Shown here: piece by piece, positions 1-56,747 of the stretch
Position numbering within the stretch: the first letter of the stretch is position 1
Layout of the letters: each line of letters opens with the position of its first letter
Assembly (NCBI GenBank): GCA_949299565.1
Contig: OX437086.1
Location: forward strand, 880,099 to 944,098
Reading direction: 5' to 3'
Source of the DNA: an uncultured Bacillota bacterium
Lineage (GTDB): Bacteria; Bacillota_I; Bacilli_A; RFN20; CAG-826
DNA length: 64,000 bases
The notes under the pieces: generated by a model
Told to the model about the DNA's origin: nothing
Seen by the model: only the letters and a program-made list of their open reading frames with translations
Database searches by the model: none
Translations under genes and position numbers: made by a program

Positions 1-1386
1 TTCTTTCTTGTTCTTATCAAAAAGAAGAAAATCCGTCACTTCCATCTTTCCTTTCGTTAAAGTGCCGGTTTTATCAAAAATAATTGTTTTGATTTTATGC
101 GTGTTTTCTAAAATCGAAGCATCTTTCATCAATAAGCCGTTGGATGCTCCTTTTCCGCTCCCGACCATGATCGCCACCGGTGTTGCTAAGCCTAAAGCGC
201 AAGGACAAGCGACCACTAAAACAGAAACTCCGTAATTGAAGGCGTTTGCAAAATCCGGCGTCAAGGAGATGTGGACGATGAAACTTATAATTGCAATCAA
301 AAGAACAAGCGGCACGAAAACAAGACTAATGCGGTCAACGAGACGCGATACCGGAGCTTTCGACTGCGAGGCTTCCTTGACCAAACGAACGATTGTCCCG
401 ATTGAAGTATCTTCCCCGACTTTTTCCGCTTTTAATTTCGCATGGCCGTTTAAGACTAGAGTTCCCGAATAAACCATTTCTCCCTCTTTTTTAAAAACCG
501 GAAGCGATTCACCGGTAATGCTACTTTCTTCAAACGAAGCCTCGCCTTCAATAAGGTGCCCGTCCACCGCCACCTTATCGCCCTTCTTTAAAATGACGGT
601 GTCATTAACTTTAATGTCTTTCGCAGGAATTATTTCCTCTTTGTCGCCGATTAGAACTCTTGCGTTTTCCGGAGCAAGGGCCACTAATTTGCTGAGTTCT
701 TTGGTGGTTTTTCCTTTCGCGAGTTTCTCTAGATATTTCCCGAGGCTCACAAGCGTTAAAATCATCGCCGCGCTTTCAAAATGCAGGGCATGTTGATAGG
801 TATGAATTGTCGCTAAATCTCCTTGCCCCAAAGCATAAGAAATCATGAACAAGCAATATAGACCGTAAAGGTAAGAAGCTCCCGCGCCTAAAGCAATCAA
901 AGAATCCATGTTCGGATGAAATTTAAATAAAAGACGGAAACCGTTGATAAAGCGCTCACGATAGATTAAAAGGCTAGGGGTCGCCAAAAGCATTTGAACA
1001 AGCGTGAAACTAACTGCGTTCTCTTCGCCCTCAAGGAAGAACGGAAGCGGCATCCCGAACATCGGACCCATTGAAAAAATCATCAAAAGAATGAGGAAAA
1101 AGAAAGAAATCATCAATTTTTGAAAGTCACGATCTTGATAAAACTTTTTTTGTTTTTCTTTTTTCTCCTCTTTTATTCCTTTTAACATGGCCTCGTAACC
1201 GGCTTGATGAACCGCTTCTTCGATTTCAGCGGTCAGAGCCTCACTGCCATCATAATCCACTGCCATATCATTGGTTAAAAGATTGACGGAAACTTTCTTA
1301 ACGCCTTTTATTTTTTCAACTGCCTTTTGAACATGCGCTTGACATGCCGCGCAGCTCATCCCTTTAACATCGAATTCTTTTTTCAT
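1..1386 (-). CDS. copA: Copper/heavy-metal translocating P-type ATPase, partial (C-terminal part lies beyond window start)
   Basis: Minus-strand frame open to position 1; translation begins MKKEFDVKGMSCAACQAHV (HMA metal-binding GMSCxxC motif) and contains the CPC transmembrane metal motif and the DKTGTLT phosphorylation motif. Confidence 0.9.
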   Translation of the reverse strand, partial: MKKEFDVKGMSCAACQAHVQKAVEKIKGVKKVSVNLLTNDMAVDYDGSEALTAEIEEAVHQAGYEAMLKGIKEEKKEKQKKFYQDRDFQKLMISFFFLILLMIFSMGPMFGMPLPFFLEGEENAVSFTLVQMLLATPSLLIYRERFINGFRLLFKFHPNMDSLIALGAGASYLYGLYCLFMISYALGQGDLATIHTYQHALHFESAAMILTLVSLGKYLEKLAKGKTTKELSKLVALAPENARVLIGDKEEIIPAKDIKVNDTVILKKGDKVAVDGHLIEGEASFEESSITGESLPVFKKEGEMVYSGTLVLNGHAKLKAEKVGEDTSIGTIVRLVKEASQSKAPVSRLVDRISLVFVPLVLLIAIISFIVHISLTPDFANAFNYGVSVLVVACPCALGLATPVAIMVGSGKGASNGLLMKDASILENTHKIKTIIFDKTGTLTKGKMEVTDFLLFDKNKKE

Positions 1387-1667
1387 TTTTTATATTTCCT
1401 TATGAGTTCAATAACTTCCGGTATCATCTCGCTTTTTCCTTCTTTAAGCGAGTTAGTCACACAGTTATAAAGATGGTTTTCTAAAATCTTCATCGATAAA
1501 GATTCTAATGATTTTTCAGAGGCGGATAGTTCGCTTAAAAGATCGATGCAATAAGCATCTTCCTCGACCATTCTTTTGATTCCTTGGATTTGTCCAGCCA
1601 CTCTTGATAAGTGATTGAGAATCTGTTTCTTCGTCGCTTCATCGCGAATTGTTTTGCGTTTTTCCAT
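1383..1667 (-). CDS. csoR: CsoR/RcnR-family metal-sensing transcriptional repressor
   Basis: About 94 aa from MEKRKTIRDE; contains RVAGQIQGIKRMVEEDAYCIDLLSELSA typical of the CsoR family; stop overlaps the copA start. The track ORF extends to 1703 from an upstream start. Confidence 0.7.
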   Translation of the reverse strand: MEKRKTIRDEATKKQILNHLSRVAGQIQGIKRMVEEDAYCIDLLSELSASEKSLESLSMKILENHLYNCVTNSLKEGKSEMIPEVIELIRKYKK

Positions 1668-1712
1668 GCTTCTTATATATACCCACACAGGGTATTTTAG
1701 CAAGGATGATGC

Positions 1713-3005
1713 TCACTTCGTTTTCATCTCTATCATCAAGAAGCCATCATAAAGATCCGGCACTAAATGCAAGAATTCTGGAAACGTAACTAGATAGGCA
1801 AACGGAAGATAAAAAAGAAAAACAAGGAAGGAAGAAAGGAAATCAACTTTCAAATAAAGAAGCATTGAAAACAGAAGAATTCCACTCGTGAGAGGAATCT
1901 TGTTGAAGATGGCAAGAAACAATAAGGCACCCATCAAAACAAAAATTCGAATCTCGCGAGACGAAAAAAGAAAAACGTCTTGCAAAAGCGCAAGGAAGAG
2001 AAGGCTTAAAAGACCGCCGATCAATAAAGACGGCATGACTAAACCACCGCTGGTTTTGCTTTCGCTAGCCAATAAAGAAATGAGAATTCGCAAAAATAAA
2101 AGAAGAACGATTGATGATAAGACTAAATTATTTCCAAGATTTAAGAAAAGCGAAGAACCGCCTCCGAGAAAAGAGCGAAAGAAAAATGACAAAACGAAAA
2201 TCACAATGAACAATAAAGCAAGGCGAATAGCCACCCAAAAATGATTGTTGAAGCGATATAAAAGACGTCTGATCAAAAGAAAAAGAAATTCGATGATATA
2301 GGCTAGAGGCGCGATAATCAAAACAAGAAGCGGCCAAAGATAAGAGAAATTCCACGAAAACATTTCTAGCCCTTCGATCGCTAAAAGATGATGCGGATCA
2401 ATAAGAAAAGCGATGATAAAAGCCACTAAAGACGTAATGGGAGCGAGAATTATTTTTTGATAGAGCTTTGTTTGGCTTCGATGATGAAGTCCCATCTCTT
2501 CGAAAGCGTAACAAACGCCCGCTAAAGGCGAAAGGAAAGCGGCCCCAAAGCCGGCGCCCGCACCGATCGCGGTCGTTTCTTTTTCTCTTTCTTTATCTGA
2601 CGTTCGCCCATCGACAAAAGAAGAAATGCCGCCGCCTAAAAGGACCGATGGTCCCTCTGATCCTAAAGGAAAACCTAAAAAAGAACCGAGGAGGCTTATG
2701 AAGGCGAAGGGAATCATCAAAAGATGATTGCCTTTCTTTTTGCCGTGCGCTACTTCGATAGTTAACGGCACTCCCGATCCGCTCAAAGAAGGCATCAAAT
2801 AAATAAGACGATAAATGATGGCAAAGAAGAGAATGTTCAATAATACATTCAATAAATAGCTCCACCAGGCCCCGTTCGTCCAAAGCGTATTTCCAAAAGC
2901 GGCCAATGAGCGGAAGCTGTATTGAAAAACGCCGATAACAACGCCAATGAGAACGCCGCTAATTAAACTTCGCAATATTTTTTCATAAAAGGGGCGCACC
3001 ATCAC
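1713..3005 (-). CDS. ClC-family chloride channel / H+-Cl- antiporter
   Basis: 430 aa polytopic membrane protein carrying the three ClC selectivity motifs in order: GSGVP, GSEGP, GAGFGAAFLSPLAG. Confidence 0.8.
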   Translation of the reverse strand: MMVRPFYEKILRSLISGVLIGVVIGVFQYSFRSLAAFGNTLWTNGAWWSYLLNVLLNILFFAIIYRLIYLMPSLSGSGVPLTIEVAHGKKKGNHLLMIPFAFISLLGSFLGFPLGSEGPSVLLGGGISSFVDGRTSDKEREKETTAIGAGAGFGAAFLSPLAGVCYAFEEMGLHHRSQTKLYQKIILAPITSLVAFIIAFLIDPHHLLAIEGLEMFSWNFSYLWPLLVLIIAPLAYIIEFLFLLIRRLLYRFNNHFWVAIRLALLFIVIFVLSFFFRSFLGGGSSLFLNLGNNLVLSSIVLLLFLRILISLLASESKTSGGLVMPSLLIGGLLSLLFLALLQDVFLFSSREIRIFVLMGALLFLAIFNKIPLTSGILLFSMLLYLKVDFLSSFLVFLFYLPFAYLVTFPEFLHLVPDLYDGFLMIEMKTK

Positions 3006-3047
3006 GCCCCGTATTTTAATGCTTTTTAGAAAAGACGAAAGATTTTC

Positions 3048-3791
3048 TCATTCAGGAAGTTTTCGATAACTCTCTTCGTCAAGCGGTTCAAGCCATTCGT
3101 TGGAGGTTTTAAGACCCGGAACATCAAAGGCGATATGTGAGAACCAGGAATGCGGACGCGCGCCGTGCCAATGCTTGACATTCGCCGGTATCACAACAAT
3201 GTCGCCGGCCTTCAAGAGTTGGACTTCCTTTCCTTCTTCTTGATAATAACCTTCGCCTTCGACAACGATCAACACTTGTCCGCCTCCGCTTTCAGCGTGA
3301 TGGATGTGCCAGTTATTGCGGCAACCGGGCTCAAAAGTCACGTTCGCAGCCGCAATATCGCCGGCTTTAAATAAAGGCTTTAAATATGATTTACCAATAA
3401 AATATTGGGCATATGCGGTGTTTTCTCCGCCTAAACCAAAGAAACCACCATGGCCTTCTTCATCTTTAGCGTCCTTATAGACTTCCTTTGCCAAACGGAA
3501 AGAGGCCCAGGCATTTGGCCAACCAGCATAGAATGCCACGTGTGTAAGCAAGGCTGCCATTTCGTCTTTCGTGATTCCGTTTTTCCTTCCCATTTCAAGA
3601 TGGGAAATTAAAGAAGAATCTGTAATTCCTTTACTCACTAAGGAAGCAATCGTTAACATCGAACGAACTTTTAAAGGGAGGACGCCCGTCTGACTCCAAA
3701 CTTCACCGAATAAAACTTCATCGTTAAGTTCGGCGAATTGCGGCGCGAATTCACCGAGAACATCATGTCCCGCTGTCTGTTTAATTTTCAT
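3048..3791 (-). CDS. Carboxymuconolactone-decarboxylase-family (AhpD-like) domain fused to a cupin domain
   Basis: Start taken at MKIKQTAGHD (internal Met of track ORF 3048..3968); N-terminal AhpD/CMD-like segment (LTHVAFYAGWPNAWASF) and C-terminal cupin-like segment (GDIVVIPANVKHWHGA). Confidence 0.65.
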   Translation of the reverse strand: MKIKQTAGHDVLGEFAPQFAELNDEVLFGEVWSQTGVLPLKVRSMLTIASLVSKGITDSSLISHLEMGRKNGITKDEMAALLTHVAFYAGWPNAWASFRLAKEVYKDAKDEEGHGGFFGLGGENTAYAQYFIGKSYLKPLFKAGDIAAANVTFEPGCRNNWHIHHAESGGGQVLIVVEGEGYYQEEGKEVQLLKAGDIVVIPANVKHWHGARPHSWFSHIAFDVPGLKTSNEWLEPLDEESYRKLPE

Positions 3792-3843
3792 AAAAACTCC
3801 TCGAAGAACAATAAATAGAAAAGCACTTGAAGTTAACTTTAAG

Positions 3844-4617
3844 TCAAGCCGCTTTTGTATTTGTAATTTTCTCCTTTTCCTCATTGGAAGGCGAGAAGTC
3901 TTCATTCCAACGTTTGCTGAAGAATAGATAAATGAGGTAAATGTAAGGCATTCCCATGTTCGTCTCAATGAGCGAATTTATGAGGATTGTTAAAATGCTA
4001 TTTTCGTTGAGAGGTCTGATGCCGTTGATCAAAAGCGAGAATTCCCAGGCAAATTGAACAGAGATACCGATGAGGTTTAGCCAAAAGATCTTGACCATCT
4101 TCTTTTTCGTGAAAAGGTTATAAATGATGAGCCCTAAATAGCCGACCACTAAGAAAATCGCCATCACATAGTGATAAGAGCCGGTTGTCCTGGAAGTCAT
4201 AATCGGGTAAGCATCAGAAGCGCTCGCAAGCGTTGGGGCCACTAACCACCAGCCGACAATTAAAAGGAGCCAAAGTTTGAGATGCTTGTCTCTTCTTAAG
4301 CAGAGCCAAATAAAAGCGAAATTCGTGATGCCATATGACAAAGACATCCAGAGGAGCACTAAAGCCGTAATCGCTTCCCCGCTTTCGTGATTGAAGGTGA
4401 TGGTCCGCGTTCCTAGAGCGAGATGGAAAATCCCATAATCAACTAAAAAATAAAGAATTCCTCCAAACAAAGACCACACTACCGTCATATAGCGTTTCTT
4501 TAAGAGGAGAAGCGTCAAAAATATCAACAAAAAGATGGAGTCTAAAATCACATACAAAAGATTCAAATTTCGCGTAGGCGTGATATTTTCAAGACTCGCC
4601 AAAAGATTAATATCCAT
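3844..4617 (-). CDS. Hypothetical polytopic membrane protein
   Basis: 257 aa ORF with multiple hydrophobic helices, immediately upstream of the CMD-cupin gene on the same strand; no family recognised. Confidence 0.5.
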   Translation of the reverse strand: MDINLLASLENITPTRNLNLLYVILDSIFLLIFLTLLLLKKRYMTVVWSLFGGILYFLVDYGIFHLALGTRTITFNHESGEAITALVLLWMSLSYGITNFAFIWLCLRRDKHLKLWLLLIVGWWLVAPTLASASDAYPIMTSRTTGSYHYVMAIFLVVGYLGLIIYNLFTKKKMVKIFWLNLIGISVQFAWEFSLLINGIRPLNENSILTILINSLIETNMGMPYIYLIYLFFSKRWNEDFSPSNEEKEKITNTKAA

Positions 4618-4657
4618 AAATGTTCTATGGATATTTTATGTTAGAGAAAAGAGGCTA

Positions 4658-5278
4658 TCAACGAATAAAATTCGTGAAAGGACGCGGAGCTTCTAATTCC
4701 GGTAGAGGAGAATTCTTTTCTTGCGCAGCGATCGCTTTCATTAAATATGACATATTGAGGGCTAAAAGTTTCATCGTGTAAAGCCCTTCTTCGTCTTTTT
4801 GAGCTTCTTCACCATTCGCGCCGTGAATCTCATTCTAATAGCAAGAAGAAGCGATCGGCATCTCATTAATCGTGAAATATTTATTTAAAACGTCGAAGGT
4901 TGAAGAATTCCCGTTGCGGCGGCAAGAAACAACTGAAGCCCCGACTTTAAAACGTTTCGAAAAAGGCGTACTGAAAAAGAGACGATCTAAAAACGAAATA
5001 AGCGTCCCGTTTGGAGAAGCGTAATATACAGGAGAACCCAAAACAACACCCGAGACTTCTTTAAGTTTTGGAGCGACTTCATTGACGAGGTCGTTGAAGA
5101 TACACTTCCCGTTTTTCTTACAAGTACGGCAAGCGATACAGCCGCGAATATCCTTAGTTCCGACATCGACAATTTCGACTTCAATCCCCTGTTCTTCAAA
5201 AACTTCTTTCATCGTCTTGAAGGCTAAAGAAACCGCACCTTTAAGATCGGGCGAGCCATTGATCATCAATACTTTCAT
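4658..5278 (-). pseudogene. Flavodoxin-like FMN reductase / iron-sulfur-flavoprotein-type gene interrupted by an in-frame TAG
   Basis: Track ORF 4835..5278 (MKVLMINGSPDL...IASSCY) stops at TAG (complement of 4835-4837); the same frame continues NEIHGANGEEAQKDEEGLYTMKLLALNMSYLMKAIAAQ... to a TGA at 4658-4660, and this tail looks like the C-terminal helix of the family. The TAG sits where I expect a conserved Trp (TGG). Confidence 0.55.
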
Positions 5279-5644
5279 ATTTCATTTCCCCCTCATTTCT
5301 ATTCTTGATTGTTTAAGAAAAAATAAACTTTTCAACCATGAAGTTGGCTTTAAGCGCCTACTTTTTTTGAATCTCCATTTCTACTTTCTTTTTGAGATCG
5401 CTTTTGAAGAGTTTTTTAATGCGAATTTCGTGACGATAATTCATATTGAACAATTTAACAACTTATTTTTTTAATTTTAGAACAAGAATGTTTCCTTGAT
5501 CGAACACATAATACAGAAATTCTAATATCACCTCATTTTGGAAACTCCAGAAACTGGCGTTTTTTCTTGCTATTGCATTTTCCTTAAATATAGAGTGCCT
5601 TTGAAAGTTTCAAAGATTAGAATATCTCCATTAGAGGACTTAAG

Positions 5645-6610
5645 ATGGAAAGCGAAGAAAAAAGTCAACCTTCCCAAAAGGTTATCGATAATCCCGATTC
5701 TTTAAAGTATGAGAACAAGAAACAAGTAGCGAAGGGCGGAGTTCTTGGATTTTTTATCGGATTAGCTATCATTGTGCCCGGCATCAGCGGCTCCACTGTC
5801 GCAATCATTTTAAAACTTTATGAGAAGTTGCTTTATGCGCTTGGCAATCTTTTCAAACATTTCAAACGCTGCGCAATCTTCTTATTGCCGATTCTTTTAG
5901 GTTTATTGATCGGTTTGGTCCTCGGTTTTTTCGGCGTTCAATATCTTCTCAACCTTTTGCCTTTCGCGATTGTCGCCCTTTTTGCTGGACTGATGATCGG
6001 AGCTTATCCTTCAATCACCGATCAGTTGAAAGGAGGCAAATTTAAAAAGCGTTATATCCTTTATTTTTTCCTCGGGATCGCCGTGCCGCTTGCAATTTCT
6101 CTTATCTCTATCTATTTATTGAACGGCAATCAAAGCTTAGAAAATTTGAGCTTCTATCACTACATTTTGTTCATAGTTCTCGGATTTATCATTGCGATTA
6201 CGCAGCTGGTTCCGGGATTGAGCGCTTCGGCGATTTTGATGGCTTTCGGTTATTTTACCCCCCTTGTGGAATCGATAAGCATCTCTTATTGGCAAATTAA
6301 TCCGCTTATTTTTGTTGTCTATCTCATGTTGATTATCGGGTTCGTTCTCGGCTTGTTTACAGTTGCCAAATTCCTTTCATGGCTTTTAAAGCGTTTCCAT
6401 GAAGCCTCTTTTAGCGTCATTGCCGGACTTTCGCTTGGCTCAATCGTCACGATGTTTGTCAATCCTGAAATTATGGTCACTTATCAAAACTGGTCTATAA
6501 ATGGCGTCGATTATCTTGATCTATTTGTGGGGTTAACTCTTCTTTTGATCGGAATTGCTGCTGCTTATTTATTCGTACGTTTTGAACGAAAAAACACTAA
6601 AAAAGCTTAG
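5645..6610 (+). CDS. DUF368-family membrane protein (family recently linked to undecaprenyl-phosphate translocation)
   Basis: 321 aa polytopic protein with duplicated VPGISGSTVAI and VPGLSASAILMAFG motifs resembling the DUF368 signature. Confidence 0.7.
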   Translation: MESEEKSQPSQKVIDNPDSLKYENKKQVAKGGVLGFFIGLAIIVPGISGSTVAIILKLYEKLLYALGNLFKHFKRCAIFLLPILLGLLIGLVLGFFGVQYLLNLLPFAIVALFAGLMIGAYPSITDQLKGGKFKKRYILYFFLGIAVPLAISLISIYLLNGNQSLENLSFYHYILFIVLGFIIAITQLVPGLSASAILMAFGYFTPLVESISISYWQINPLIFVVYLMLIIGFVLGLFTVAKFLSWLLKRFHEASFSVIAGLSLGSIVTMFVNPEIMVTYQNWSINGVDYLDLFVGLTLLLIGIAAAYLFVRFERKNTKKA

Positions 6611-6725
6611 TATCATTTTTCTTACTTTTATCCACGAAAAAAGAATTTTATTCATTGAAAGTACTTTAAAAAAGTGTAGTTAGCAACTAGATTAAATAAA
6701 AATTTGTTTTCAATGTAAATCATTA

Positions 6726-6753
6726 TTGACATTAAAAAGAAACTTTCTAAATT
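6726..6753 (+). promoter_or_regulatory. Candidate sigma-70-like promoter for the lipoprotein gene at 6835
   Basis: TTGACA at 6726-6731, 16-nt spacer, TAAATT at 6748-6753, about 80 nt upstream of the start codon. Confidence 0.3.
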
Positions 6754-6834
6754 GATAGCACCGGAGCACCGGTTACACATATTTCGCCCCATGTAATTCG
6801 TTAGAAAATACAACGCGGCGAAGAAAGGAAAGTT

Positions 6835-9138
6835 ATGTCTAAGAAACTTCAATCAAAACTTTTTCTTGGAGCCGCGATTCTTTTAGGCACAAGTGTGACA
6901 CTTTTATCGTGTGGCGGTCCTGCTACTTCAGAGGGAGAAAATAGCTCTTCATCCAGTAGCAACGATACTTCTTCAACGCTTCCGATCGAAAGTCATAGCA
7001 TCAGCATCGGCGAGACGGGAGGCGCGGTTCTTGAACTTTCTGCTGAGACTGCTTCGAGCGGAACGCGAATAGAAATTACAGTCGTCTCGGTTCCTGATGA
7101 CAAGATTATCAGCGCAATTACGACTGATGTTCCGGGAGTTGACGTCATTTCCTCCGGAAACAACAGTTATTATTTCATCATGCCGAACAGTGACGTCACT
7201 ATAAGCGTCACTTTAAGCGATCAAATCGCTGATAGTTACCCATTGACTCTAGTCAATAACACGGATGGAGAAATTGTTGGGATCAGCGACAGTCAAAGCA
7301 ATCAAATTGACGAAGAAAATGGGGTTTATAATTTAACCCCGAACGCTTCTTATTATTTACGGATTATCAACTATACCGGAGCGATTACGGCAAATCTAAA
7401 CGGGGCACCGCTCACAATCGGCGAATATTACATTTCATTTGTAATGCCAGCCGCAGCTTCGACATTGACCATCGATCCGGCTGCTTCTTATTCTGTTTCC
7501 TTTATTTATGATGCAGAAGCTTTTAGTGAAGACCCAATCCTTATTGATTTTGCCTCTGATTACGGAACAATTCTCACGCCATCTAATATCGTGGAGGGAA
7601 CAGAGGTTTATATTGCTGCTTATCCAAATTCCGGTTATTTATTGACGGCGATTAATTTAGATGGCACGCCGATTCAAGAAGAAAACGGCAATTACGTCTT
7701 CACGATGCCGGGTCATGATGTCACGCTAGAATTCATCACTGAAAGCGAGGCTTCTAGTTCATACCTCCTCAACGTAAACGACGTTAACCAAGCCTTGAAT
7801 TTCGTAGTTTATGAAGTCAACGACGGCGTTTTCGAGGAAATTGAAAATTACACACCAACCCAGCGTTTCTTGGAAGGCAGCACTTTGGCAATTTCTTTCA
7901 GCGTCACCGCTCCTTACCGCAACATTTATACCCTTGGCGAAATTGTCATTGACGGCGTTTCAGCAACACCCGATTCAGAAGGACATTATTCTTTCGTTGT
8001 CGCTGATCACAATGTGGAAATCACGGCAAATACAACGCTCATTCAACATAATTTGGCTTTCGATGCGCAAGGAAGCGGCGCCAGTTGTCTCTTCTACAAT
8101 GAAGAAGATGAAATCATTACAACTGCCGGTTGGAATCAAATGGTTAAAGCCGTCTTCACTCATCCTGAGGGCTTAACCTTATTAGCTGTTTATCAAAACG
8201 GAACATTAGGAACTGGTACGCTTGAAGGCAACACTTATACCTTCACGATGGGACAAACAGATTTAACTTTAACAGCCGGCTGGTCAAGCTCCACTAATGT
8301 CTATAATCTCGGCTACAGCGTGACTCCGAGCGATTTAGCCGCACAAGTTTCTGTCACCTTCTTCGATTCTGATAACGGCTTTGGTGATGAAATAACTGAA
8401 GCTGTTGCTGGTCAAACAGTTTATGCACAAATATCGGTTGAAAGCGGCTACCGCGTTGCAAATGTTTCTTTTAACGGCAATACGCTTTCGCTCGTCGAAG
8501 GTTATTATCCGTTAACAGTTTTAGAAGAAGATGTAAAAGTCGAAATTACCGTTGAAGTTTCAAATACCTACAACCTTGTAATTGATCGAAGCAACGCTCC
8601 GTCTGGCACCATCATCGATGTTGTCGATGAAAACGGGACATACTTAGAACTCGTCTCAGGCCATTACGAATTGAGTGCCGGCGACATCGTCTATTTCGAT
8701 CCTTGGGCTCCTGATAGTACTGTTTCTGCGATGTATGCAAATGGCACCGCTCTAGAATTTGTTAGCGGCATTCCGACTCCCTCCGGCACCGGTTATCAGT
8801 TAGAGATGCCGAGTGAAAATGTCACAATCACAATTGAATGGGGAGAAGGAGAAATTCCGTCCGGAAGCAATGAAATCATTTATGTTCCTAGCGATTTAGA
8901 TCCTCAAACTGAAAATTTTGGTCTCAACATTTATAGCGGTTCAACTTGGCAAAGCGTAACTTCTGCTCAAGAAGGCGAAATGATTCTCATCAACGTTTAT
9001 GGTTATCCTGAAAACTACACAATCGAAAATCTCTATGTCAACGGCGTAGTCGTCGAATTTAGCTACGACTATGGAATGTATGTCTTTACGATGCCGGCGA
9101 CAACCGCTTATATCAGCATCAGCTGGCTCATAAGCTAA
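6835..9138 (+). CDS. Surface lipoprotein with repeated beta-rich modules (InlB-B-repeat-like)
   Basis: Signal peptide with lipobox LLSCGG, Ser-rich linker, then at least four repeats of a 60-80 aa module (G-x-E/T-V-x-I ... P-x-x-G-Y ... N-G ... Y-x-F-x-M-P ... D/N-V-T-I). Confidence 0.85.
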   Translation: MSKKLQSKLFLGAAILLGTSVTLLSCGGPATSEGENSSSSSSNDTSSTLPIESHSISIGETGGAVLELSAETASSGTRIEITVVSVPDDKIISAITTDVPGVDVISSGNNSYYFIMPNSDVTISVTLSDQIADSYPLTLVNNTDGEIVGISDSQSNQIDEENGVYNLTPNASYYLRIINYTGAITANLNGAPLTIGEYYISFVMPAAASTLTIDPAASYSVSFIYDAEAFSEDPILIDFASDYGTILTPSNIVEGTEVYIAAYPNSGYLLTAINLDGTPIQEENGNYVFTMPGHDVTLEFITESEASSSYLLNVNDVNQALNFVVYEVNDGVFEEIENYTPTQRFLEGSTLAISFSVTAPYRNIYTLGEIVIDGVSATPDSEGHYSFVVADHNVEITANTTLIQHNLAFDAQGSGASCLFYNEEDEIITTAGWNQMVKAVFTHPEGLTLLAVYQNGTLGTGTLEGNTYTFTMGQTDLTLTAGWSSSTNVYNLGYSVTPSDLAAQVSVTFFDSDNGFGDEITEAVAGQTVYAQISVESGYRVANVSFNGNTLSLVEGYYPLTVLEEDVKVEITVEVSNTYNLVIDRSNAPSGTIIDVVDENGTYLELVSGHYELSAGDIVYFDPWAPDSTVSAMYANGTALEFVSGIPTPSGTGYQLEMPSENVTITIEWGEGEIPSGSNEIIYVPSDLDPQTENFGLNIYSGSTWQSVTSAQEGEMILINVYGYPENYTIENLYVNGVVVEFSYDYGMYVFTMPATTAYISISWLIS

Positions 9139-9190
9139 AGGTAATTATTTATCTATTTTCTTGATTTCTAAAAAGTAGAAAGGATTTACT

Positions 9191-10657
9191 ATGCAAAGAA
9201 AAACCCCGCTTTTGTTCTTAACTACGCTTGGCGGACTATCGCTTTTGGCTTCTTGCGGAGGAGGTGCCTCTTCCTCGTCCATAAGCGAAGCACCATCGCT
9301 CAATCCGACGCTTCAAGCACTCCGCCAAGGCTTTAGAGTTGAGGGAACTATCGAGATAAATGAAAGTTATTATAGCGACCGCAATTATCAAGTGCCTGAT
9401 CTTGCTTTAAGCGACACAACCACTCGTTACCGCTATGAACTTAATTTCGAGGATAGTGCAAACTTCACTGGCGTTGATCGCCGCTACTACCAAGTCTTTG
9501 ATTTAGGGGACGGCGAGACACAAGAAGCTTATTATTATGGCGAGAACTCCTATAACAATAACGGCTATGCCTCTTTAATTTACCTTGATTACAATAACGA
9601 GTTAGTCAATGACTACGCCGTTGATTCAAACGGCGAATTGATTCCTTATGCTAACAACGGGCTGCTCAATCCGTTTAAACTCCTTCAAAGAGGCGACTTT
9701 CACGAAATTGAAGGGGGTTTTATGTTGGATAACGCTAAAACATCGGTTTTCCTTGATGGCTTCTTCTCGTTGTTAGATGGTTATCAAGATAACATCGTTT
9801 ATGAAACGAAAACTTTTGCCTTCGGTGATTCTACTTTGGAATCTGCAACTTTTATATCTTATAACATCGATGATGGTTATAGTTCCACCGTTCCAAGCGA
9901 TGATGATCCGCTTCATCAAACCTACATTCGCCGCAATTATCAAATAGACATGGAATTCTCCGAAGTCGGAAGCGCAACTTCTCACGATTTAATTGCTGTT
10001 GAACCGGAGAAAGAAGAAAACGCACCCTTAAAAGCGGCGCTAGAAAATATGGTCGCACAAGAGGAAGTGACCGTCCAAAGACGCATTACCCCTTATATAG
10101 ACGGGGAATACGTTGGAGAGGATAATTACCTTAACATTTATTACATGGGAGAGGAAGAAGGGATTTATTCGCAAAATTATGTTTTAGCCCCGGATGAAGA
10201 AGTTCCTACCGCTCCAAGCGCCTCCGATTTCATCTTGAAACCGGCAATCGCGGGCGGGCGTCTCCGTGTCTATCAATTAGATGATACAACCGGCAATTTC
10301 ATCCTCAATTCGTCAAATTTCACTTCTTTAGACAACGTCTATTACTATGCTGACCAGCAATATGATCTTTCTTATCTTGATGCAAACATCTTTAACATCA
10401 ATGAAGACGGATCTTATTCGCCGACCGTTGATAACCTCCCCTATATCACGCGCGACATCTTTATGTCATATCTGGACACTTTCACGCCTGTCGATAATGG
10501 ATATGTCAATTCAGTGCGAATTTATGTCAACGAAGAGGCGACTTGCATCGATCATATCGATATTCAATACGCCGATCATCTCGGCTATTCGGGGGAAATG
10601 GTCATTTCCTACAGTGATCTCGGAGATTCGCATCCAAGTTTCGCGATTAATTATTGA
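9191..10657 (+). CDS. Lipoprotein, acidic Tyr/Asn/Asp-rich, unknown function
   Basis: Signal peptide with lipobox LLASCGGG; RBS GAAAGGA upstream; paralogous to the next gene. Confidence 0.85.
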   Translation: MQRKTPLLFLTTLGGLSLLASCGGGASSSSISEAPSLNPTLQALRQGFRVEGTIEINESYYSDRNYQVPDLALSDTTTRYRYELNFEDSANFTGVDRRYYQVFDLGDGETQEAYYYGENSYNNNGYASLIYLDYNNELVNDYAVDSNGELIPYANNGLLNPFKLLQRGDFHEIEGGFMLDNAKTSVFLDGFFSLLDGYQDNIVYETKTFAFGDSTLESATFISYNIDDGYSSTVPSDDDPLHQTYIRRNYQIDMEFSEVGSATSHDLIAVEPEKEENAPLKAALENMVAQEEVTVQRRITPYIDGEYVGEDNYLNIYYMGEEEGIYSQNYVLAPDEEVPTAPSASDFILKPAIAGGRLRVYQLDDTTGNFILNSSNFTSLDNVYYYADQQYDLSYLDANIFNINEDGSYSPTVDNLPYITRDIFMSYLDTFTPVDNGYVNSVRIYVNEEATCIDHIDIQYADHLGYSGEMVISYSDLGDSHPSFAINY

Positions 10658-10667
10658 GGAGTCTTTT

Positions 10668-20207: not shown

Positions 20208-21614
20208 CTATTTGATTTCATCATGCTTTTGACGGGCGATGTTATATGGGTAACTGCCCGCTCGCGTTTTTCGCCAATCATGCCCTAATGGCAACGCTTC
20301 TTCTTTCTTTTCTAAGAACTTTTCATTCAAAGATTCCTCTTTGATTGGAAAATCATTTATCCGATACTCGATTTTAATTTTTCTGTTCTTCTTCTCTTTT
20401 TTAAACGCTTCTTTAGGGATTGCTCCGCTTTTAATAAGGGCAATCTTTGCTAAGACGGGGCCAGCCATTTCATATAAAACAGAAGAACACAGAATGATTG
20501 ATAAGAACGTATCGCCGATTGATGATGGCAACATCCGCTCCCCTAAAAAAGCTAAACCAATCGCGACGCCTGCTTGAGGCGCTAAAGCAAAACCTAAGTA
20601 AATCCTCGTCTTTTTCTCGCTTTTTGTGATTAAAGCGCCTAAATATGCTCCGCCATATTTACCAAGCAAGCGCACGATAAAATATATAACGCCAACAACG
20701 CCGATCGTCATAAAAGAAGAAAAATCCATGTTCATTCCGCTCATAACGAAGAAAAGGAGCATGATGGGCGGACTGAAGTGATCGACATAGTCAAATAACT
20801 TCTCATCCTTCGTAAAATTGGTGTAACTTGCCCCGAAAACCATGCAAGACAACAAGGGAGAAATGTCTAAAAGAATGCAGGCTCCGCTGATTAAAGAAAT
20901 AAGGGCGACAGCGATGATTAATCGCGAATTCGCTGAACGTCCTTTAATTAAAAGTTTTAAGAGAAAGCCAGCTAAGAAGCCTAAGGCCACAAAAGAAAGG
21001 TTATAGATGACTGGGAGAATGATTTCTAAGGCATTGACGTTGCCGCTTTCTAGTCCTTCGACGATAGAAGAAGCAAGAGTAAAAGCCAATAAGCAAACTA
21101 CGTCATCAAGCGCCACTACTTGTAAAAGCGTCTCAACAAATTCGCCTTTCGCCTTATATTGATTGATGGTCATCAATGTCGAAGCCGGCGCAGTGGCCGT
21201 GGCAATAGCCCCTAAAAGCAAGGCAAAATTCCATCCTAGATCTTGAAAGCACAGCCCGATGACAAGCGTCACTAAAACACCCGCCAGAAGCGCTTCTAGT
21301 AAAGTGATGACAATCACCCGTCCGCCCGTCGCCTTCAAAACCTCTTTCTTAAAAAACTTACCAACTCCAAAAGCAATAAAACCCAAAGCCAAATCGCTTA
21401 AAAACGACATTCCGGAGATAATCGTCGGAGAAATTAAATCCAAAACAAATGGTCCGATTAAGATTCCGCTGATGATATAACCCGTTACGTTCGGCAATTT
21501 AATAAGCTTCGTGACTCGCGAAATAAGAAAGCCCGCGAAAAACATAATCGCCAGAGCGATTAAAATCGTCGCTCCTCCAAATCCTTCGTAATATTTATAA
21601 AGATTAAACGGCAT
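20208..21614 (-). CDS. Monovalent cation:proton antiporter (CPA-type, Kef/NhaP-like)
   Basis: Start at MPFNLYKYY with RBS AGGAGA upstream; about 12 predicted TM helices with Gly-rich CPA-like segments. Confidence 0.8.
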   Translation of the reverse strand: MPFNLYKYYEGFGGATILIALAIMFFAGFLISRVTKLIKLPNVTGYIISGILIGPFVLDLISPTIISGMSFLSDLALGFIAFGVGKFFKKEVLKATGGRVIVITLLEALLAGVLVTLVIGLCFQDLGWNFALLLGAIATATAPASTLMTINQYKAKGEFVETLLQVVALDDVVCLLAFTLASSIVEGLESGNVNALEIILPVIYNLSFVALGFLAGFLLKLLIKGRSANSRLIIAVALISLISGACILLDISPLLSCMVFGASYTNFTKDEKLFDYVDHFSPPIMLLFFVMSGMNMDFSSFMTIGVVGVIYFIVRLLGKYGGAYLGALITKSEKKTRIYLGFALAPQAGVAIGLAFLGERMLPSSIGDTFLSIILCSSVLYEMAGPVLAKIALIKSGAIPKEAFKKEKKNRKIKIEYRINDFPIKEESLNEKFLEKKEEALPLGHDWRKTRAGSYPYNIARQKHDEIK

Positions 21615-21736
21615 TTTTCTCTCCTTTCCTTCTTTCTTTTTCTTATAAACTCCCATATCATAATGAAAGTAAAAATAAGTAAACTTAATTATTTAATATG
21701 AATATATAAGTTTTTCTTATAATAGGAGGCAGGATC

Positions 21737-22621: not shown

Positions 22622-24307
22622 CTATTTAAGGGGTTTCTCGTACAAGGCAAACGTCGTGAGGTTTTTCTCTTTTAAATCTGTGGGATCATAATTTTTGCCG
22701 TTTTCTTGATAAATGTGGAGTCGATAATGCTTTGCCGCTTCTTCATTACAAATCGCGACTAAAATTGTTGAAGAATCAACATTCATCGATGAAACGATTT
22801 TCGCGGCTTCTGAGGTTGAATTGATTTCCTTTTTTAAGCGTTTCTCCAAGAAAATAGAACATTGTTTAAAAGCTTCGTTTTTCGATAAATAAAGCGTCTC
22901 CTTATCATAGATCATATTTCTATCAAGTTCGCGGTTGCTCGCTAAAACGTATCGAATCGGCTTAACGAGTTGCTCGACTTCCTTAAAAGATGAGAATTCG
23001 TTTTTCGGCTCTAAGTCTTCGTTATTGTTGCTGATTGGCACTAAAGCAAGATCTAGATAGCCGTTTTCCAAATATTTTCGTTCAGTCATGAAATCATCGA
23101 AATAGATTTTCTTGTAATCAGAATATTTAGAGGCAAGTTCTGTCCGAAAGGCCATATCTGTATTCGAATAAGGGTATCCGAAAATGCCAATTATTTTTTG
23201 TCCGGGTTTTCTGATCGAATAGAAGGAAGAAGAATAGTCTAGTAATTTTGCATCTTTCTCGCTGATCCGATAAAAACGGACGCGACCGCTCAATTTAGTG
23301 CCTCTTGAGAAGAACCAGCCATCCATCGTCGTAATCCCGTTTTTCCCGATCTGGCCAATGAATTGACAGTTCCCTTCAGCCCGATCACCGGAATTGTTTG
23401 AAACATTCGAGGAATAATGATAGAAGCCCTTCCCGACCATGTCATGCTCGTCAATCCCGAAAACAAAGGAATCCGCCGAGAAGAAAAGAATATCTTCTCC
23501 AACGAAATGACATTTCATCGAGAGCTGTTTCTTTTTATAAGAAATATCGACAATCCTAAGCCTTAAACCTTTCGGAACATAAGCAAGGCCGTCCTTCCGT
23601 TCTTCAAAAGAATAATAAATCCACTTCCCCGTAATCAACGAGTTGCGGTTATCTTCATCAAAGCCCGTCATCCCCAGCACGAGGTTTAAAACAACAACTA
23701 AGACCGTTCCTACCGCGGAATATATTTCTTCATTGGCCTCCGGCAAAAATTTAAAAAACGAGGAAAGGAATAAAAGAATCGTCAAAGTGATCGAAATTAA
23801 GGCAGAAACCAAACGCACGATGAAAGAGACCGTCACATGCGAACCGAAATAATTTTTGATGCGCATGATCAAAGAACGTCGATAATCATTCAATTTAAAT
23901 AGACGAAACTCGAGCATTTCAAAATCTTCATCATCCTCGTCGTATAAAAAGCTCAAGGCTTCCTCGTTATTCTCTTTCGAGAGAGCGTAATTTGAATAAC
24001 GCGAATTCACGAAACGGCTAAGCTTATCGATTTTTGCAACGAATAAGCCGATTTCGATGATTTGATCGATATTTAAACGGCTGATTAAAGAGAGGAAATC
24101 ATAATTTGGATGATTATCGATGGTTCGCGACGGAAGAAGCAAAAAATCAATCTCGCGTTTTTTTAAGCGCGCGACCATTTCTGATAAAGAAGCACATAAC
24201 ACAAGTTCAACTTCCTGCCCCTCAAAAAGTTTATGATTCATGAGGTTTGAAAGTAACACTTCTTTTTGAAGGGTTTCCGGTGTCTTTAAATATCCGACTT
24301 TCAGCAT
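22622..24307 (-). CDS. Membrane protein built from prephenate-dehydratase (PDT)-like domains, no ACT domain
   Basis: N-terminal about 100 aa resemble the PDT N-subdomain (VGYLKTPETL...ELVLCASLSEMVARLKKREIDFLLLP); two hydrophobic helices in the middle; C-terminal about 250 aa resemble a full PDT domain (IGIFGYPYSNTDMAF...LDLALVPISN...STSEAAKIVSS...NLTTFAL) with TTF where TRF is expected. Confidence 0.65.
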   Translation of the reverse strand: MLKVGYLKTPETLQKEVLLSNLMNHKLFEGQEVELVLCASLSEMVARLKKREIDFLLLPSRTIDNHPNYDFLSLISRLNIDQIIEIGLFVAKIDKLSRFVNSRYSNYALSKENNEEALSFLYDEDDEDFEMLEFRLFKLNDYRRSLIMRIKNYFGSHVTVSFIVRLVSALISITLTILLFLSSFFKFLPEANEEIYSAVGTVLVVVLNLVLGMTGFDEDNRNSLITGKWIYYSFEERKDGLAYVPKGLRLRIVDISYKKKQLSMKCHFVGEDILFFSADSFVFGIDEHDMVGKGFYHYSSNVSNNSGDRAEGNCQFIGQIGKNGITTMDGWFFSRGTKLSGRVRFYRISEKDAKLLDYSSSFYSIRKPGQKIIGIFGYPYSNTDMAFRTELASKYSDYKKIYFDDFMTERKYLENGYLDLALVPISNNNEDLEPKNEFSSFKEVEQLVKPIRYVLASNRELDRNMIYDKETLYLSKNEAFKQCSIFLEKRLKKEINSTSEAAKIVSSMNVDSSTILVAICNEEAAKHYRLHIYQENGKNYDPTDLKEKNLTTFALYEKPLK

Positions 24308-24339
24308 ATTGACATTATATACAAAGAAACTTCTTGTTT

Positions 24340-25008
24340 TTATCTTTTAAGGGTCAGGCGATAACTATTATCGATATAAGAATATATTTCTTCGTTCTTC
24401 ACCGTCCCGTTTAAGAGAACTGTAAACCAGTTCTTTTTATTCATGTGATAGGCTGGGAAATAATTATGATAGTCAAGTAAAGAAGATAAGCGTTCTGGTT
24501 CAATCCGTAAATCTAAAATCTCTAGGTTCTCTTCACCTAAAAGACCGATTTTCTTCTCTTTTACAGTTAATAACGCCGCGTACCACGTCTTTGTGTCCTT
24601 TCGCCTAAAAATTGCATTATTCGGGAACTTCTTCCAAAGATATTCCGGTTCATCGCCATATGTTCTTTTTATGTATTCAATTACGAGTTTTGTTTGTTCG
24701 CCTTTAAAGATTTCAGTCGCACAACAATTATTTATAAAGTTCTCGATTGCTGCGTTATAAGCTTCTCTGATTGAACCGATAAATTCTCCGATTGCTTTAG
24801 AGATTAAATGAAGAACATATTCTTCATTCGTGGCTTTTTCGCTTATCCTTACCCATAATTCATCTCCCTTTAAAACATAAAGTTCAAGAAGAAAACGGCC
24901 CCCTAATATCTCGCTTTTATAGGAATAGACGTTATCTAAATAACTAAAACCAAATGGTATAAGTCTCTCAGTGATTATCTTTTTGTTTATTAAGGGAATT
25001 TGCTTCAT
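24340..25008 (-). CDS. MmcQ/YjbR-family putative DNA-binding protein with N-terminal extension
   Basis: C-terminal half (WYAALLTV...LDLRIEP...PAYHMNKKNWFTV) matches my recollection of MmcQ/YjbR motifs. Confidence 0.6.
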   Translation of the reverse strand: MKQIPLINKKIITERLIPFGFSYLDNVYSYKSEILGGRFLLELYVLKGDELWVRISEKATNEEYVLHLISKAIGEFIGSIREAYNAAIENFINNCCATEIFKGEQTKLVIEYIKRTYGDEPEYLWKKFPNNAIFRRKDTKTWYAALLTVKEKKIGLLGEENLEILDLRIEPERLSSLLDYHNYFPAYHMNKKNWFTVLLNGTVKNEEIYSYIDNSYRLTLKR

Positions 25009-25452
25009 GTTTCTTTATCTTAAACATTAAGCCATAAGAGTTCCTTAATCATCAAAGAAAAAACATTTTGTGCGACTACTTTGTTATTATTCTGAGTTAT
25101 TACACAACAAGATTTAAAAAATGTCGAAAAGAAAAAAGAACTTTAATGCTATAAAAAATTTTTCCATTTTATTTCTCCTAACTCTTTCAATTTTTCAAAA
25201 GCGTTTGCATCTATTATTGTGTCTAACCACGGTCCGTTCCCTCCTTCGTCAAAAATGCCGTTGGTACGAAGGCTATCTAATTAAAGATGGCTGAGAGAAA
25301 TCTTCTATAAGCAATGATTTAGTTCTCAACAAGCATTATTAGTCGAATGCTTTTATTTATGCTTTTTCTTTTTTCATAAAAGTTAAACAACAACTCGATG
25401 TATTGAGCTTTTTAAAGATGACTAATTTTTTGATGAAACTTATTCGCGGTCG

Positions 25453-26247: not shown

Positions 26248-26577
26248 ACTTAAATTATATGCTTAAGTTTTGCACAATAGCTTTTATTAAGAATTACTAT
26301 AAAACCAACTTTATAATATGCAACTAAAGATGCACTGCCATTAATTTCACCATAAAAATTATGACGAATATCAATTCAGAAAACGCAAAATGATTGATAT
26401 CGCTATTGCAGATGATGATAAAGTAGTCGTTCTTTTGTGTTTTTATATGTCTATGACTCAAAATATAGAAAAATTTTAGCTAAGAAAATAATAACAAAAA
26501 CTTTCATTGCCTTGTCACTGAAACTAATATCACCATATTTTTTAGGGAGTAGCACGCGTACAAATATGACGTAAATT

Positions 26578-28440: not shown

Positions 28441-28763
28441 AACTTATCATATTTAAGAGATTTTGATTTGCATTTTTCAATAGGATATTTTCTTTTCGTT
28501 TTTTCAAGTTTATCTAAAACAATTTTATTGATATCAAGATTCAAGACTTGCGCCATTTGAATACAATAATTAATTACATCGGCAAGCTCGTCTTTTACAT
28601 CATTTGAGTTGAAGTTTTTCTCATCCCATTGAAAACACTCAAGAAGTTCGTTGGCTTCAATGGAAATAGATTTAGCTAAATTAGCGGGTGTATGAAATTT
28701 GTTCCAATCTCTCTCGTCAACGAATTTTTTAATTTCCGCTTGCAATAAATCTAGTTTATCCAT
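28437..28763 (-). CDS. MazG-like nucleoside-triphosphate pyrophosphohydrolase (small all-alpha type)
   Basis: 108 aa with the EExxE-type metal-binding segment (SIEANELLECFQWDE, DELADV); translationally coupled to the nuclease-helicase gene. Confidence 0.75.
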   Translation of the reverse strand: MDKLDLLQAEIKKFVDERDWNKFHTPANLAKSISIEANELLECFQWDEKNFNSNDVKDELADVINYCIQMAQVLNLDINKIVLDKLEKTKRKYPIEKCKSKSLKYDKL

Positions 28764-28858
28764 GATTTTATTTTATCATTGTTAAAGATTAAAAAACTAA
28801 AGAAATGTTCGGCACTGCTTTTCAGTATCGGAGTATCAAAATAACCACTTCAATATTG

Positions 28859-31112: not shown

Positions 31113-31134
31113 GGCTTACCTCCTCTTTGGTTAG

Positions 31135-55136: not shown

Positions 55137-56747
55137 CTACCTCGCCGTTCCTTTATCAAGCGCGGCTTTTACAAAACCATGAAATAATGGATTTGGTTTA
55201 AGAGGACGCGAAGTAAATTCGGGGTGGAACTGTGAAGCCAAGAAAAACGGATGATCTTTTAATTCAATAATTTCAACCAAGTTTGAATCGGGATTTAAAC
55301 CGCTGAAAACCATTCCGGCTTTAGCAAAAGCTTCGCGGTACTCGTTATTAAATTCATAACGATGACGATGACGTTCTTGAATCAATTCTTTTTGATAAAG
55401 AGAGGACGCTAAACTGCCTTCCAAAAGACGGCAATCATAATTTCCGAGTCGCATCGTTCCGCCCATTTGAATTCCCGAATACTGATCGCGCAACAAATCG
55501 ATGACTGGGCACGGCGTGTGCGGATCGAATTCAGTGGTGTTCGCCTCTTCTAATTTCATAACGTGTTCTGCATATTCGATGATTGCAAGTTGCATGCCAA
55601 AACAAATTCCAAGAAAGGGAATCTTCTCTTCGCGCGCGTAACGGATGGCTTCTTTTTTTCCTTCGCTTCCGCGTTCACCGAAACCGCCCGGCACCAAGAT
55701 TCCTTGAACATCCTTTAAAACTTCAGTGACGTTGTCGTGAGTAATGTCAACGCTTCTGATCCAAGAGATTTCAACTTCAGCCCCTTCTTTATAGCCGGCA
55801 TGCTTAAGCGCTGAAGAAACCGACAAATAAGCATCGTGAAGCTCAACATATTTACCAATGAGAGCAATTTTCACCTTTTTATTTGCAGTTTTAATACTCT
55901 TGACCCACCTTTCCCATTCATGTAAGTCAATAGAATCAGCTTCTAAATGCAAATGACGCAATACATAATCATCAAGCCCCTGCTCATGGAGCAAGAACGG
56001 CAATTCATAAACATTCTTCTGATCTAAAGCCTCAAAAACTCCTGAAGGCGGAACATTGCAGAAAAGAGAAATCTTTTCTTTTTCCTTGCTAGCCAAGGCA
56101 ACTTCACTTCTTAAAACGATAGCGTCAGGCTGAATTCCTAAACCCAAAAGTTCCTTGACTGAATGCTGCGTCGGTTTCGTCTTTGACTCCCCGGCGCTTC
56201 TCAAATAAGGGACAAGAGTGTTATGGATAAACATCACGTTTTCATAGCCGAGCTCTGACCGCGTCTGACGGACAGCTTCTAAGAACGGTTGACTCTCAAT
56301 ATCTCCGACTGTCCCACCGATTTCCGCGATTAAGACATCAGCGCCAGAAACTTTCATTGCCTCGAGGAGCCGCCCTTTAATTTCATTTGTAACGTGTGGA
56401 ATCACTTGCACGCATGCGCCGAGATAATCCCCGCGCCGTTCCTTATCCATTACGGCCCGATATATTTTTCCAGAAGTGACAGAACTCTCCTTGCTGAGCG
56501 TCAAATCAACCCATCGTTCATAATGTCCCAAGTCTAAATCAGTCTCAGCCCCGTCTGCCGTCACATAAACTTCGCCGTGTTGATAAGGCGACATCGTGCC
56601 GGGATCAACATTTAAATACGGGTCGAACTTTTGCATGAAGACTTTAAGTCCGCGGCTCTTGAGTAAAAGGCCTAACGAAGAGGCAAAAATTCCTTTTCCT
56701 AAACTCGAAACAACGCCGCCCGTTACAAAGACAAATTTAGAAGCCAT
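55137..56747 (-). CDS. pyrG: CTP synthase
   Basis: 536 aa; N-terminal synthetase domain ([19 protein letters not shown]) and C-terminal glutamine amidotransferase domain (GICFGMQL, catalytic Cys). Confidence 0.95.

What the first reader, a model, noticed from the sequence alone, without database searches (positions are those of the whole stretch)
4658..5278. Amber codon where a conserved Trp is expected in a flavodoxin-like FMN reductase gene
The ORF stops at TAG after ...IASSCY, but the same frame continues for 58 more codons with sequence that looks like the family's C-terminal helix (NEIHGANGEEAQKDEEGLYTMKLLALNMSYLMK). From memory the family has Y-W-N at this position, so TAG probably derives from TGG by one G-to-A change. 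TAG ends other genes here (LysR, GrpB-GNAT), so this is a nonsense mutation, a sequencing error, or a truncated variant, not recoding.
Basis: partly seen in the sequence, partly recalled or inferred. Interest (0 to 1): 0.5.

Follow-up and report, generated by a model that had tools for sequence, protein, structure and literature searches.

The report
One-base nonsense mutation in flavoprotein gene
A single G-to-A change turns an invariant tryptophan codon into a stop in a small redox flavoprotein gene of an uncultured gut or rumen bacterium, which is an ordinary, very recent gene-inactivating mutation or, less likely, a base-calling error.

Summary
On the minus strand, a 147-codon ORF (5278..4835) ends at TAG, and the same frame runs 58 more codons to TGA at 4660..4658.

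- **Family:** the joined 206-residue product is a full-length FMN_red (PF03358) flavoprotein. It carries a CX2CX2CX5C motif of the iron-sulfur-flavoprotein (Isf) type.
- **Conservation:** position 148 is Trp in all 120 closest database homologues and in all 91 fetched loci. None of the 120 is shorter than 204 aa.
- **Single change:** two metagenome contigs of essentially the same strain carry TGG. One of them (7,518 nt) differs from the window at this base only (window 4836).
- **Allele counts:** intact alleles sit on 39 contigs and the truncated allele on 2.
- **No recoding:** TAG ends 12 other ORFs in the window, TGA also acts as a stop, and the window holds no suppressor tRNA.
- **Effect:** the stop removes strand beta5 and the long C-terminal helix of the flavodoxin-like fold, so the product is almost certainly inactive.

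Whether the change is a real mutation (favoured) or a consensus error needs the reads. Interest is low.

The parts
4835..5278 (-). 5' fragment of the flavoprotein gene: 147 sense codons plus the premature TAG
   Evidence: ORF list and translation. Pfam FMN_red PF03358 matches residues 1-145 at E 1.7e-22, 80 bits against a cut-off of 24.
4835..4837 (-). Premature amber codon TAG at codon 148. The changed base is window 4836 (A on the coding strand, T on the + strand). All relatives have TGG (Trp).
   Evidence: Codon-by-codon comparison with L001-L010. W is invariant in 120/120 homologues and 91/91 loci.
4658..4834 (-). 3' remnant: 58 in-frame codons plus the ancestral TGA stop (4660..4658). It encodes strand beta5 and the C-terminal helix.
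   Evidence: Translation. The protein sequence is identical to residues 149-206 of the intact alleles P0122 and P0124. Secondary structure of the intact form: E150-152, H156-160, H163-189.
5102..5140 (-). Codons 47-59, C-IA-C-RT-C-KKNGK-C: a compact four-cysteine motif (CX2CX2CX5C) of the iron-sulfur-flavoprotein type
   Evidence: Read directly from the sequence. C47, C50, C53 and C59 are invariant in alignment A1. The motif definition CX2CX2CX5-7C is taken from PMC3164229.
5288..5294 (-). Shine-Dalgarno-like GAGGGGG, 9 nt upstream of the ATG
   Evidence: Read directly from the sequence.
3844..4617 (-). Next gene downstream on the same strand: a 257-aa membrane protein with no Pfam match, starting 40 nt after the ancestral stop. 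It may be co-transcribed and so exposed to polarity from the premature stop.
   Evidence: ORF list. The same gene order is seen in all related loci. No Pfam hit. Polarity is inference only.

Best explanation
The sequenced genome carries a very recent loss-of-function allele of a 206-residue FMN-dependent, probably [4Fe-4S]-containing flavoprotein (FMN_red family, Isf-like). One G-to-A transition changed the invariant Trp148 codon TGG to the amber stop TAG. Translation ends after residue 147. The product lacks strand beta5 and the long C-terminal helix alpha5 of the flavodoxin-like fold, together with the invariant W148, N149, H152 and G153. It is therefore expected to misfold or be inactive (inferred). 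The remaining 58 codons are still intact only because no time has passed for further decay. Shown here: the single-base difference, the invariance of Trp, the full length of all homologues, and normal use of TAG as a stop. Inferred: that the base is real rather than miscalled, that the truncated protein is non-functional, and that the intact protein acts as a redox or oxidative-stress flavoprotein.
For: - Codon 148 is TGG in all ten related contigs and TAG in the window.
- L010 (7,518 nt, ENA ERZ16268088) equals window 275-7792 except for base 4836. L009 (7,963 nt) has 4 mismatches, one of which is 4836. There are no gaps.
- A third near-identical contig, L092, has 3 mismatches and no gaps over 5,941 nt. 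Real strain-level SNPs therefore occur at about 1-5 per 10 kb, and the window consensus shows no indel errors over about 21 kb.
- The 147-aa product and the 38-aa tail ORF are recorded on 2 contigs, with sources NCBI/ENA and Logan. This suggests that a second assembly also calls TAG.
- W148 is invariant in 120/120 homologues and 91/91 loci. The lengths of the 120 closest are 204-220 aa.
- Stop usage among the 51 long ORFs of the window is TAA 24, TGA 14 and TAG 13, counting this premature stop.
Against: No reads are available, so a miscalled base cannot be excluded. The second contig carrying the truncated product could not be retrieved, and it may derive from the same reads. The changed base is the only difference from L010 in 7.5 kb, and it falls on an invariant codon. 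A random base error would produce that pattern as readily as a fresh mutation. The intact allele is far more common (39 contigs against 2).
Confidence: 0.7

Rival explanations
1. The TAG is a sequencing, consensus or polishing error. The organism really has TGG and an intact gene.
For: The changed base is the sole difference from a 7.5-kb contig of the same strain. It hits a codon that is invariant in every relative. Every other recorded allele of the cluster is intact.
Against: The window shows no gaps and only 8 mismatches in about 21 kb against three independent short-read metagenome contigs, so the consensus is accurate. Real SNPs between these strains (about 1-5 per 10 kb) should be far more frequent than residual substitution errors in such an assembly. 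That last rate comes from general knowledge and was not measured here. The truncated product is listed from two contigs and from Logan as well as NCBI/ENA. This points to an independent assembly with the same base.
Confidence: 0.22
2. The gene still yields a functional protein. This could happen through low-level readthrough or suppression of UAG giving the full-length protein, or because the 147-residue fragment (alone, or with the 38-residue tail ORF 4774..4658) keeps some activity.
For: The tail is still fully open and identical in protein sequence to intact alleles. The N-terminal fragment keeps the FMN_red Pfam match (residues 1-145) and the Cys motif. Gene callers did call the 38-aa tail ORF, P0123.
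Against: The intact tail is explained by the youth of the mutation, since there are no other changes in 7.5 kb. No homologue among the 120 closest proteins or the 91 loci is truncated or split. TAG is an ordinary stop for 12 other ORFs, and the window has no CUA-anticodon tRNA. The fragment lacks an entire beta-alpha unit of the fold and four invariant residues. The 38-aa ORF starts inside helix alpha5 (residue 169).
Confidence: 0.05
3. Programmed recoding: TAG is read as an amino acid here, either through pyrrolysine or a reassigned amber codon.
For: Only the bare fact of an in-frame TAG followed by homologous sequence.
Against: Relatives encode ordinary Trp with TGG at this site, in 91/91 loci, including contigs 99.95-99.99% identical to the window. 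TAG terminates 12 other ORFs in the window. For the VCA0040-like gene (321 aa) and the LysR gene (294 aa), the relatives' genes have the same lengths. The window contains no pyl genes and no suppressor tRNA.
Confidence: 0.01

Closest known systems
Iron-sulfur flavoprotein (Isf) family; prototype Methanosarcina thermophila Isf (Latimer 1996, Zhao 2001 and Andrade 2005, as cited in PMC3164229)
   Same: It is a small (about 200 aa) flavodoxin-like FMN protein of anaerobes. It has the compact N-terminal cysteine motif CX2CX2CX5-7C that ligates a [4Fe-4S] cluster. Here the motif is C47-X2-C50-X2-C53-X5-C59, invariant across alignment A1.
   Different: Direct sequence or structural homology to the archaeal prototype was not tested, because no chain named Isf surfaced in the PDB searches. 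The cofactors are inferred. The copy in this window is truncated by a nonsense codon.
Flavone reductase FLR / 'Cd1' (PDB 7d38)
   Different: The chain is 310 aa in the sequence search (288 residues in the structure library), with 14-18% identity in the structural alignments. Its Cys spacing is longer and it has extra C-terminal parts. Nothing here indicates the same substrate.
WrbA / SsuE / PnpB / ArsH-type NAD(P)H:FMN or quinone oxidoreductases (Pfam FMN_red PF03358, Flavodoxin_2)
   Different: Identity is only 12-20%. These enzymes lack the four-Cys motif. The NCBIfam SsuE models score far below their cut-offs (30.8 against 164 bits).
Ordinary nonsense-mutation pseudogenes or strain-level loss-of-function polymorphisms in bacterial genomes
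   Same: A single transition creates a stop in an otherwise intact, conserved gene, while intact alleles exist in sister strains.
   Different: Nothing distinguishes this case from the usual one.

Membership tests
Pfam FMN_red (PF03358), flavodoxin-like FMN oxidoreductases | Match to the family HMM above the gathering score | tested here: met
   80 bits against a cut-off of 24, E 1.7e-22, residues 1-145.
Pfam FMN_red (PF03358), flavodoxin-like FMN oxidoreductases | Complete five-stranded alpha/beta flavodoxin-like fold | tested here: not met
Pfam FMN_red (PF03358), flavodoxin-like FMN oxidoreductases | FMN binding and NAD(P)H- or ferredoxin-dependent reductase activity | not testable with these tools
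   Needs biochemistry.
Iron-sulfur flavoprotein (Isf) family | Compact cysteine motif CX2CX2CX5-7C in the N-terminal half | tested here: met
   C47, C50, C53 and C59 are all invariant in A1. The motif is as quoted in PMC3164229.
Iron-sulfur flavoprotein (Isf) family | Detectable homology to the characterised archaeal Isf proteins | not tested
The papers PMC1112032 and PMC100102 are not held. No chain named Isf appeared.
Iron-sulfur flavoprotein (Isf) family | Bound [4Fe-4S] cluster and FMN | not testable with these tools
   Needs spectroscopy or a solved structure.
SsuE NADPH-dependent FMN reductase (TIGR03567 / NF007859 equivalogs) | Score at or above the equivalog cut-off | tested here: not met
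   30.8 against 164 bits and 22.2 against 225 bits.
Programmed amber recoding (pyrrolysine, reassigned or suppressed UAG) | The in-frame TAG is conserved in relatives at the same site | tested here: not met
   TGG (Trp) in 10/10 close contigs and W in 91/91 loci.
Programmed amber recoding (pyrrolysine, reassigned or suppressed UAG) | TAG is not used as a normal terminator; a tRNA-CUA or pyl genes are present | tested here: not met
   TAG ends 12 other ORFs. The window holds only tRNA-Trp(CCA), tRNA-Glu and tRNA-Asn. The Pfam scans found no pyl genes. Only the 64-kb window could be examined, not the whole genome.

The most novel reading that the evidence does not exclude
The amber allele is maintained and partly suppressed. 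In that case a low level of full-length flavoprotein would be made by UAG readthrough, or the allele would be a reversible on/off polymorphism of an oxidative-stress flavoprotein in a gut or rumen Bacilli population.
Probability: 0.03. Interest if true: 0.4.

Novelty: already known. Interest (0 to 1): 0.08.

Why it matters
It matters little beyond annotation. The locus should be flagged as a pseudogene or a possible base error, not as two small genes of 147 and 38 aa, which is how gene callers recorded it. If the mutation is real, this strain has lost one Isf-type redox flavoprotein that its sister strains keep. That is a minor strain-level difference, possibly relevant to oxygen or peroxide tolerance. 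The case is also a clean example in which near-identical metagenome contigs pin a pseudogenising change to one base.

Tried and rejected
- **Exact-pattern scans.** Scans around the stop, with N at the variable base, found nothing in genome contigs or in JGI metagenome contigs. Allele frequencies therefore come only from the protein-cluster records.
- **Retrieving the source contigs.** I tried to retrieve the contigs that carry the truncated allele, to see whether an independent assembly has TAG. The look-ups returned 'not on record'. A look-up through the neighbouring gene showed only an intact-allele contig.
- **Solved structures.** phmmer against the PDB gave no hit, and a profile search gave only weak N-terminal matches.
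- **AlphaFold database.** The afdb50 fold library was unavailable.
- **Isf papers.** The primary Isf papers were not held, so Isf membership rests on the motif alone.
- **Paralogue.** No compensating copy of the gene exists in the window (tblastn).
- **Other nonsense-split genes.** The same-frame scan found none in the window.
- **Code 4 (UGA = Trp).** I considered this because the organism is a small-genome Bacilli lineage. It is rejected because TGA ends 14 long ORFs.
- **Promoters and terminators.** The scan around the gene gave counts at chance level, so it says nothing reliable about operon structure or polarity.

Full report
**1. What is in the sequence**

On the minus strand, an ATG at 5278..5276 is preceded by GAGGGGG (5294..5288). 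It opens a reading frame of 147 codons that ends ...MPIASSCY-TAG (4837..4835). The same frame then stays open for 58 more codons (NEIHGANGEEAQKDEEGLYTMKLLALNMSYLMKAIAAQEKNSPLPELEAPRPFTNFIR) up to TGA at 4660..4658. The coordinates and description in the finding are exact.

**2. What the gene is**

- With X at the stop, the 206-residue product matches Pfam FMN_red (PF03358) at 80 bits against a cut-off of 24, over residues 1-145. Flavodoxin_2 scores 26.9 bits, just under its 27-bit cut-off.
- The NCBIfam SsuE equivalogs score far below their cut-offs.
- A search of the 5.8-billion-protein collection returned thousands of homologues at about 60-65% identity over 95-100% of the query. The 120 best are 204-220 aa long, so none ends near residue 147.
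- Their sources are overwhelmingly rumen and gut Clostridia, Spirochaetes and Erysipelotrichaceae MAGs and isolates.
- Residues 47-59 read C-IA-C-RT-C-KKNGK-C, and all four cysteines are invariant in a 24-sequence alignment (A1). This is the compact CX2CX2CX5-7C motif described for iron-sulfur flavoproteins (Isf), where it is thought to ligate a [4Fe-4S] cluster next to FMN (PMC3164229).
- An AlphaFold model of the intact allele (pLDDT 88.7, pTM 0.87) is a five-unit flavodoxin-like fold.
- By sequence profile, the nearest solved chain is flavone reductase 7d38 (E 3.7e-07, N-terminal half only).

I therefore describe the gene as an Isf-type member of the FMN_red family. The Isf label rests on the motif, not on a tested alignment with the archaeal prototypes.

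**3. The stop is a single-base change of an invariant Trp codon**

- In the 120 closest homologues, Y147, W148 and N149 are each present in 120 of 120 sequences. H152 (109/120) and G153 (120/120) follow.
- In all 91 fetched loci, tblastn places W opposite position 148. These loci are eleven stretches from ten contigs of the same species plus 80 species-representative genomes.
- The 90%-identity cluster that contains the window's 147-aa product has five members:
  - the 147-aa fragment (2 contigs, the longest 1,061,998 bp; sources NCBI, ENA and Logan);
  - the 38-aa tail ORF, from the same contigs;
  - three intact 206-aa alleles: P0001 (1 contig), P0122 (36 contigs) and P0124 (2 contigs).
- P0124 is identical to the window's conceptual product, with W at position 148.
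- At the DNA level, all ten related contigs have TGG at codon 148.
- L009 and L010 differ from the 621-nt window gene at that base only.
- Across the flanks, L010 (7,518 nt) matches window 275-7792 with exactly one mismatch, at window 4836.
- L009 (7,963 nt) has four mismatches, at 7419, 7407, 6762 and 4836.

The event is thus a G-to-A transition on the coding strand (C to T on the + strand). It is younger than essentially every other substitution in the neighbourhood. This also explains why the 58-codon tail is undamaged. The four synonymous and zero non-synonymous differences from L001 in the tail predate the stop and say nothing about current selection.

**4. It is not recoding**

- Among 51 long ORFs of the window, the stops are TAA 24, TGA 14 and TAG 13, counting this one.
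- TAG closes the VCA0040-like gene (321 aa) and the LysR gene (294 aa). The relatives' genes have the same lengths. TAG also closes the 320-aa GrpB-GNAT gene.
- The window's tRNAs are Trp(CCA), Glu and Asn, and Rfam finds nothing else.
- TGA is a stop, so this is not a code-4 lineage.
- Relatives encode the residue with ordinary TGG.

**5. Consequence for the protein (inferred)**

The stop falls just before strand beta5 (residues 150-152), a short helix (156-160) and the long C-terminal helix alpha5 (163-189). The product would lose the last beta-alpha unit of the fold. It would also lose every invariant residue of A1 from W148 onward, including N149, H152, G153, D162, E164 and G165. No natural homologue lacks this part. 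I infer loss of function.

The window has no paralogue. The next gene on the strand, a 257-aa membrane protein at 4617..3844, starts 40 nt after the ancestral stop. The same gene order (flavoprotein, membrane protein, CMD-cupin fusion, CLC channel, CsoR, copper ATPase) is kept in all relatives. A polar effect on the downstream gene is possible but untested. The promoter and terminator scan is at chance level.

**6. Real mutation or base error?**

This cannot be settled without reads. I favour a real mutation at about 0.7, for three reasons.

- (a) Against three independent short-read metagenome contigs (L009, L010, L092), the window shows no gaps and 8 mismatches in about 21.4 kb. The consensus is therefore accurate. 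True strain SNPs occur at about 1-5 per 10 kb, which should far exceed the residual substitution-error rate of such an assembly. The error rate is general knowledge, not measured here.
- (b) The truncated product is recorded from two contigs and from Logan as well as NCBI/ENA. This suggests a second assembly with the same base. I could not retrieve that contig to check.
- (c) Very young polymorphisms commonly include deleterious changes.

One point favours an error. The change is the only difference from L010, and it falls on an invariant codon.

**7. Organism and context**

The CTP synthase at 55137..56747 has its nearest named relatives, at about 70% identity, in 'Bacilli bacterium' MAGs and 'Candidatus Enteromonas'. 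The flavoprotein's homologues are mostly from ruminant gut MAGs. The source is probably an uncultured, small-genome Bacilli lineage from a rumen or gut habitat, but this is inferred, not shown. In such anaerobes, Isf-type proteins are linked to oxidative stress defence; the Isf literature cited in PMC3164229 includes work on the interaction of Isf with oxygen and hydrogen peroxide. The neighbouring CMD (AhpD-like)-cupin gene weakly fits that role.

**8. Verdict**

This is an ordinary single-base nonsense change, or a miscall, in a conserved flavoprotein gene. It has no novelty in mechanism. Interest is about 0.08. Its value is mainly as a correction to the annotation.

Noticed in passing
window 24000-34519: A low-GC island (GC 0.31-0.33, against about 0.40-0.43 elsewhere) lies next to tRNA-Trp (34446-34519). 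It carries an AbiLi/AbiLii pair (29769-31112 and 29089-29769; PADLOC E 3.9e-78 and 2.9e-15). It also carries a Schlafen-group-3 / AbiO / Nhi-like helicase (26578-28440) overlapping a MazG-like gene (28437-28763). This looks like an anti-phage defence island, possibly mobile.
   Followed up: partly
window 6597-13909, compared with L001 8619-8643: About 7.3 kb with four surface-protein genes is absent from the related strain contig L001. The genes are a 767-aa protein with an InlB-type B repeat, a 488-aa protein, a protein of about 502 aa, and a 583-aa protein with BspA-type LRR_5 repeats. In L001 the GrpB-GNAT gene directly abuts the VCA0040-like gene. This is a strain-variable surface-protein cassette.
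   Followed up: partly
L001 418-1823 and 7677-8618 (window 20208-21656 and 13906-14868): In the related Logan contig L001, the Na+/H+ exchanger (92 + 369 aa) and the GrpB-GNAT fusion (80 + 52 + 73 aa) are called in pieces. The window has them intact (482 aa and 320 aa). Whether L001 has real disruptions or assembly errors was not checked.
   Followed up: no
window 4658-4774 (-): Public gene calls list the 38-aa tail ORF (MKLLALNMSYLMK..., P0123) as a separate protein on the same contigs as the 147-aa fragment. This is an annotation artefact of the split gene.
   Followed up: yes
window 1383-5278 (-): A conserved same-strand gene string follows the flavoprotein gene, with 40-52 nt gaps where measured (the three junctions from the flavoprotein to the CLC gene, in L002). 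It runs flavoprotein, 257-aa membrane protein with no Pfam match, CMD(AhpD-like)-cupin fusion, CLC channel, CsoR-type repressor, and then a copper P-type ATPase just beyond the window start. It may be a stress or metal-homeostasis neighbourhood.
   Followed up: partly
window 55137-56747 (-): For the CTP synthase, the nearest hit outside its own 90% cluster is only 76% identical and unnamed. The nearest hits that carry an organism name, at about 70%, are 'Bacilli bacterium' and 'Candidatus Enteromonas' MAGs. The source therefore appears to be a poorly sampled, uncultured Bacilli lineage. The species was not found in the GTDB-representative scan with an exact pattern.
   Followed up: partly
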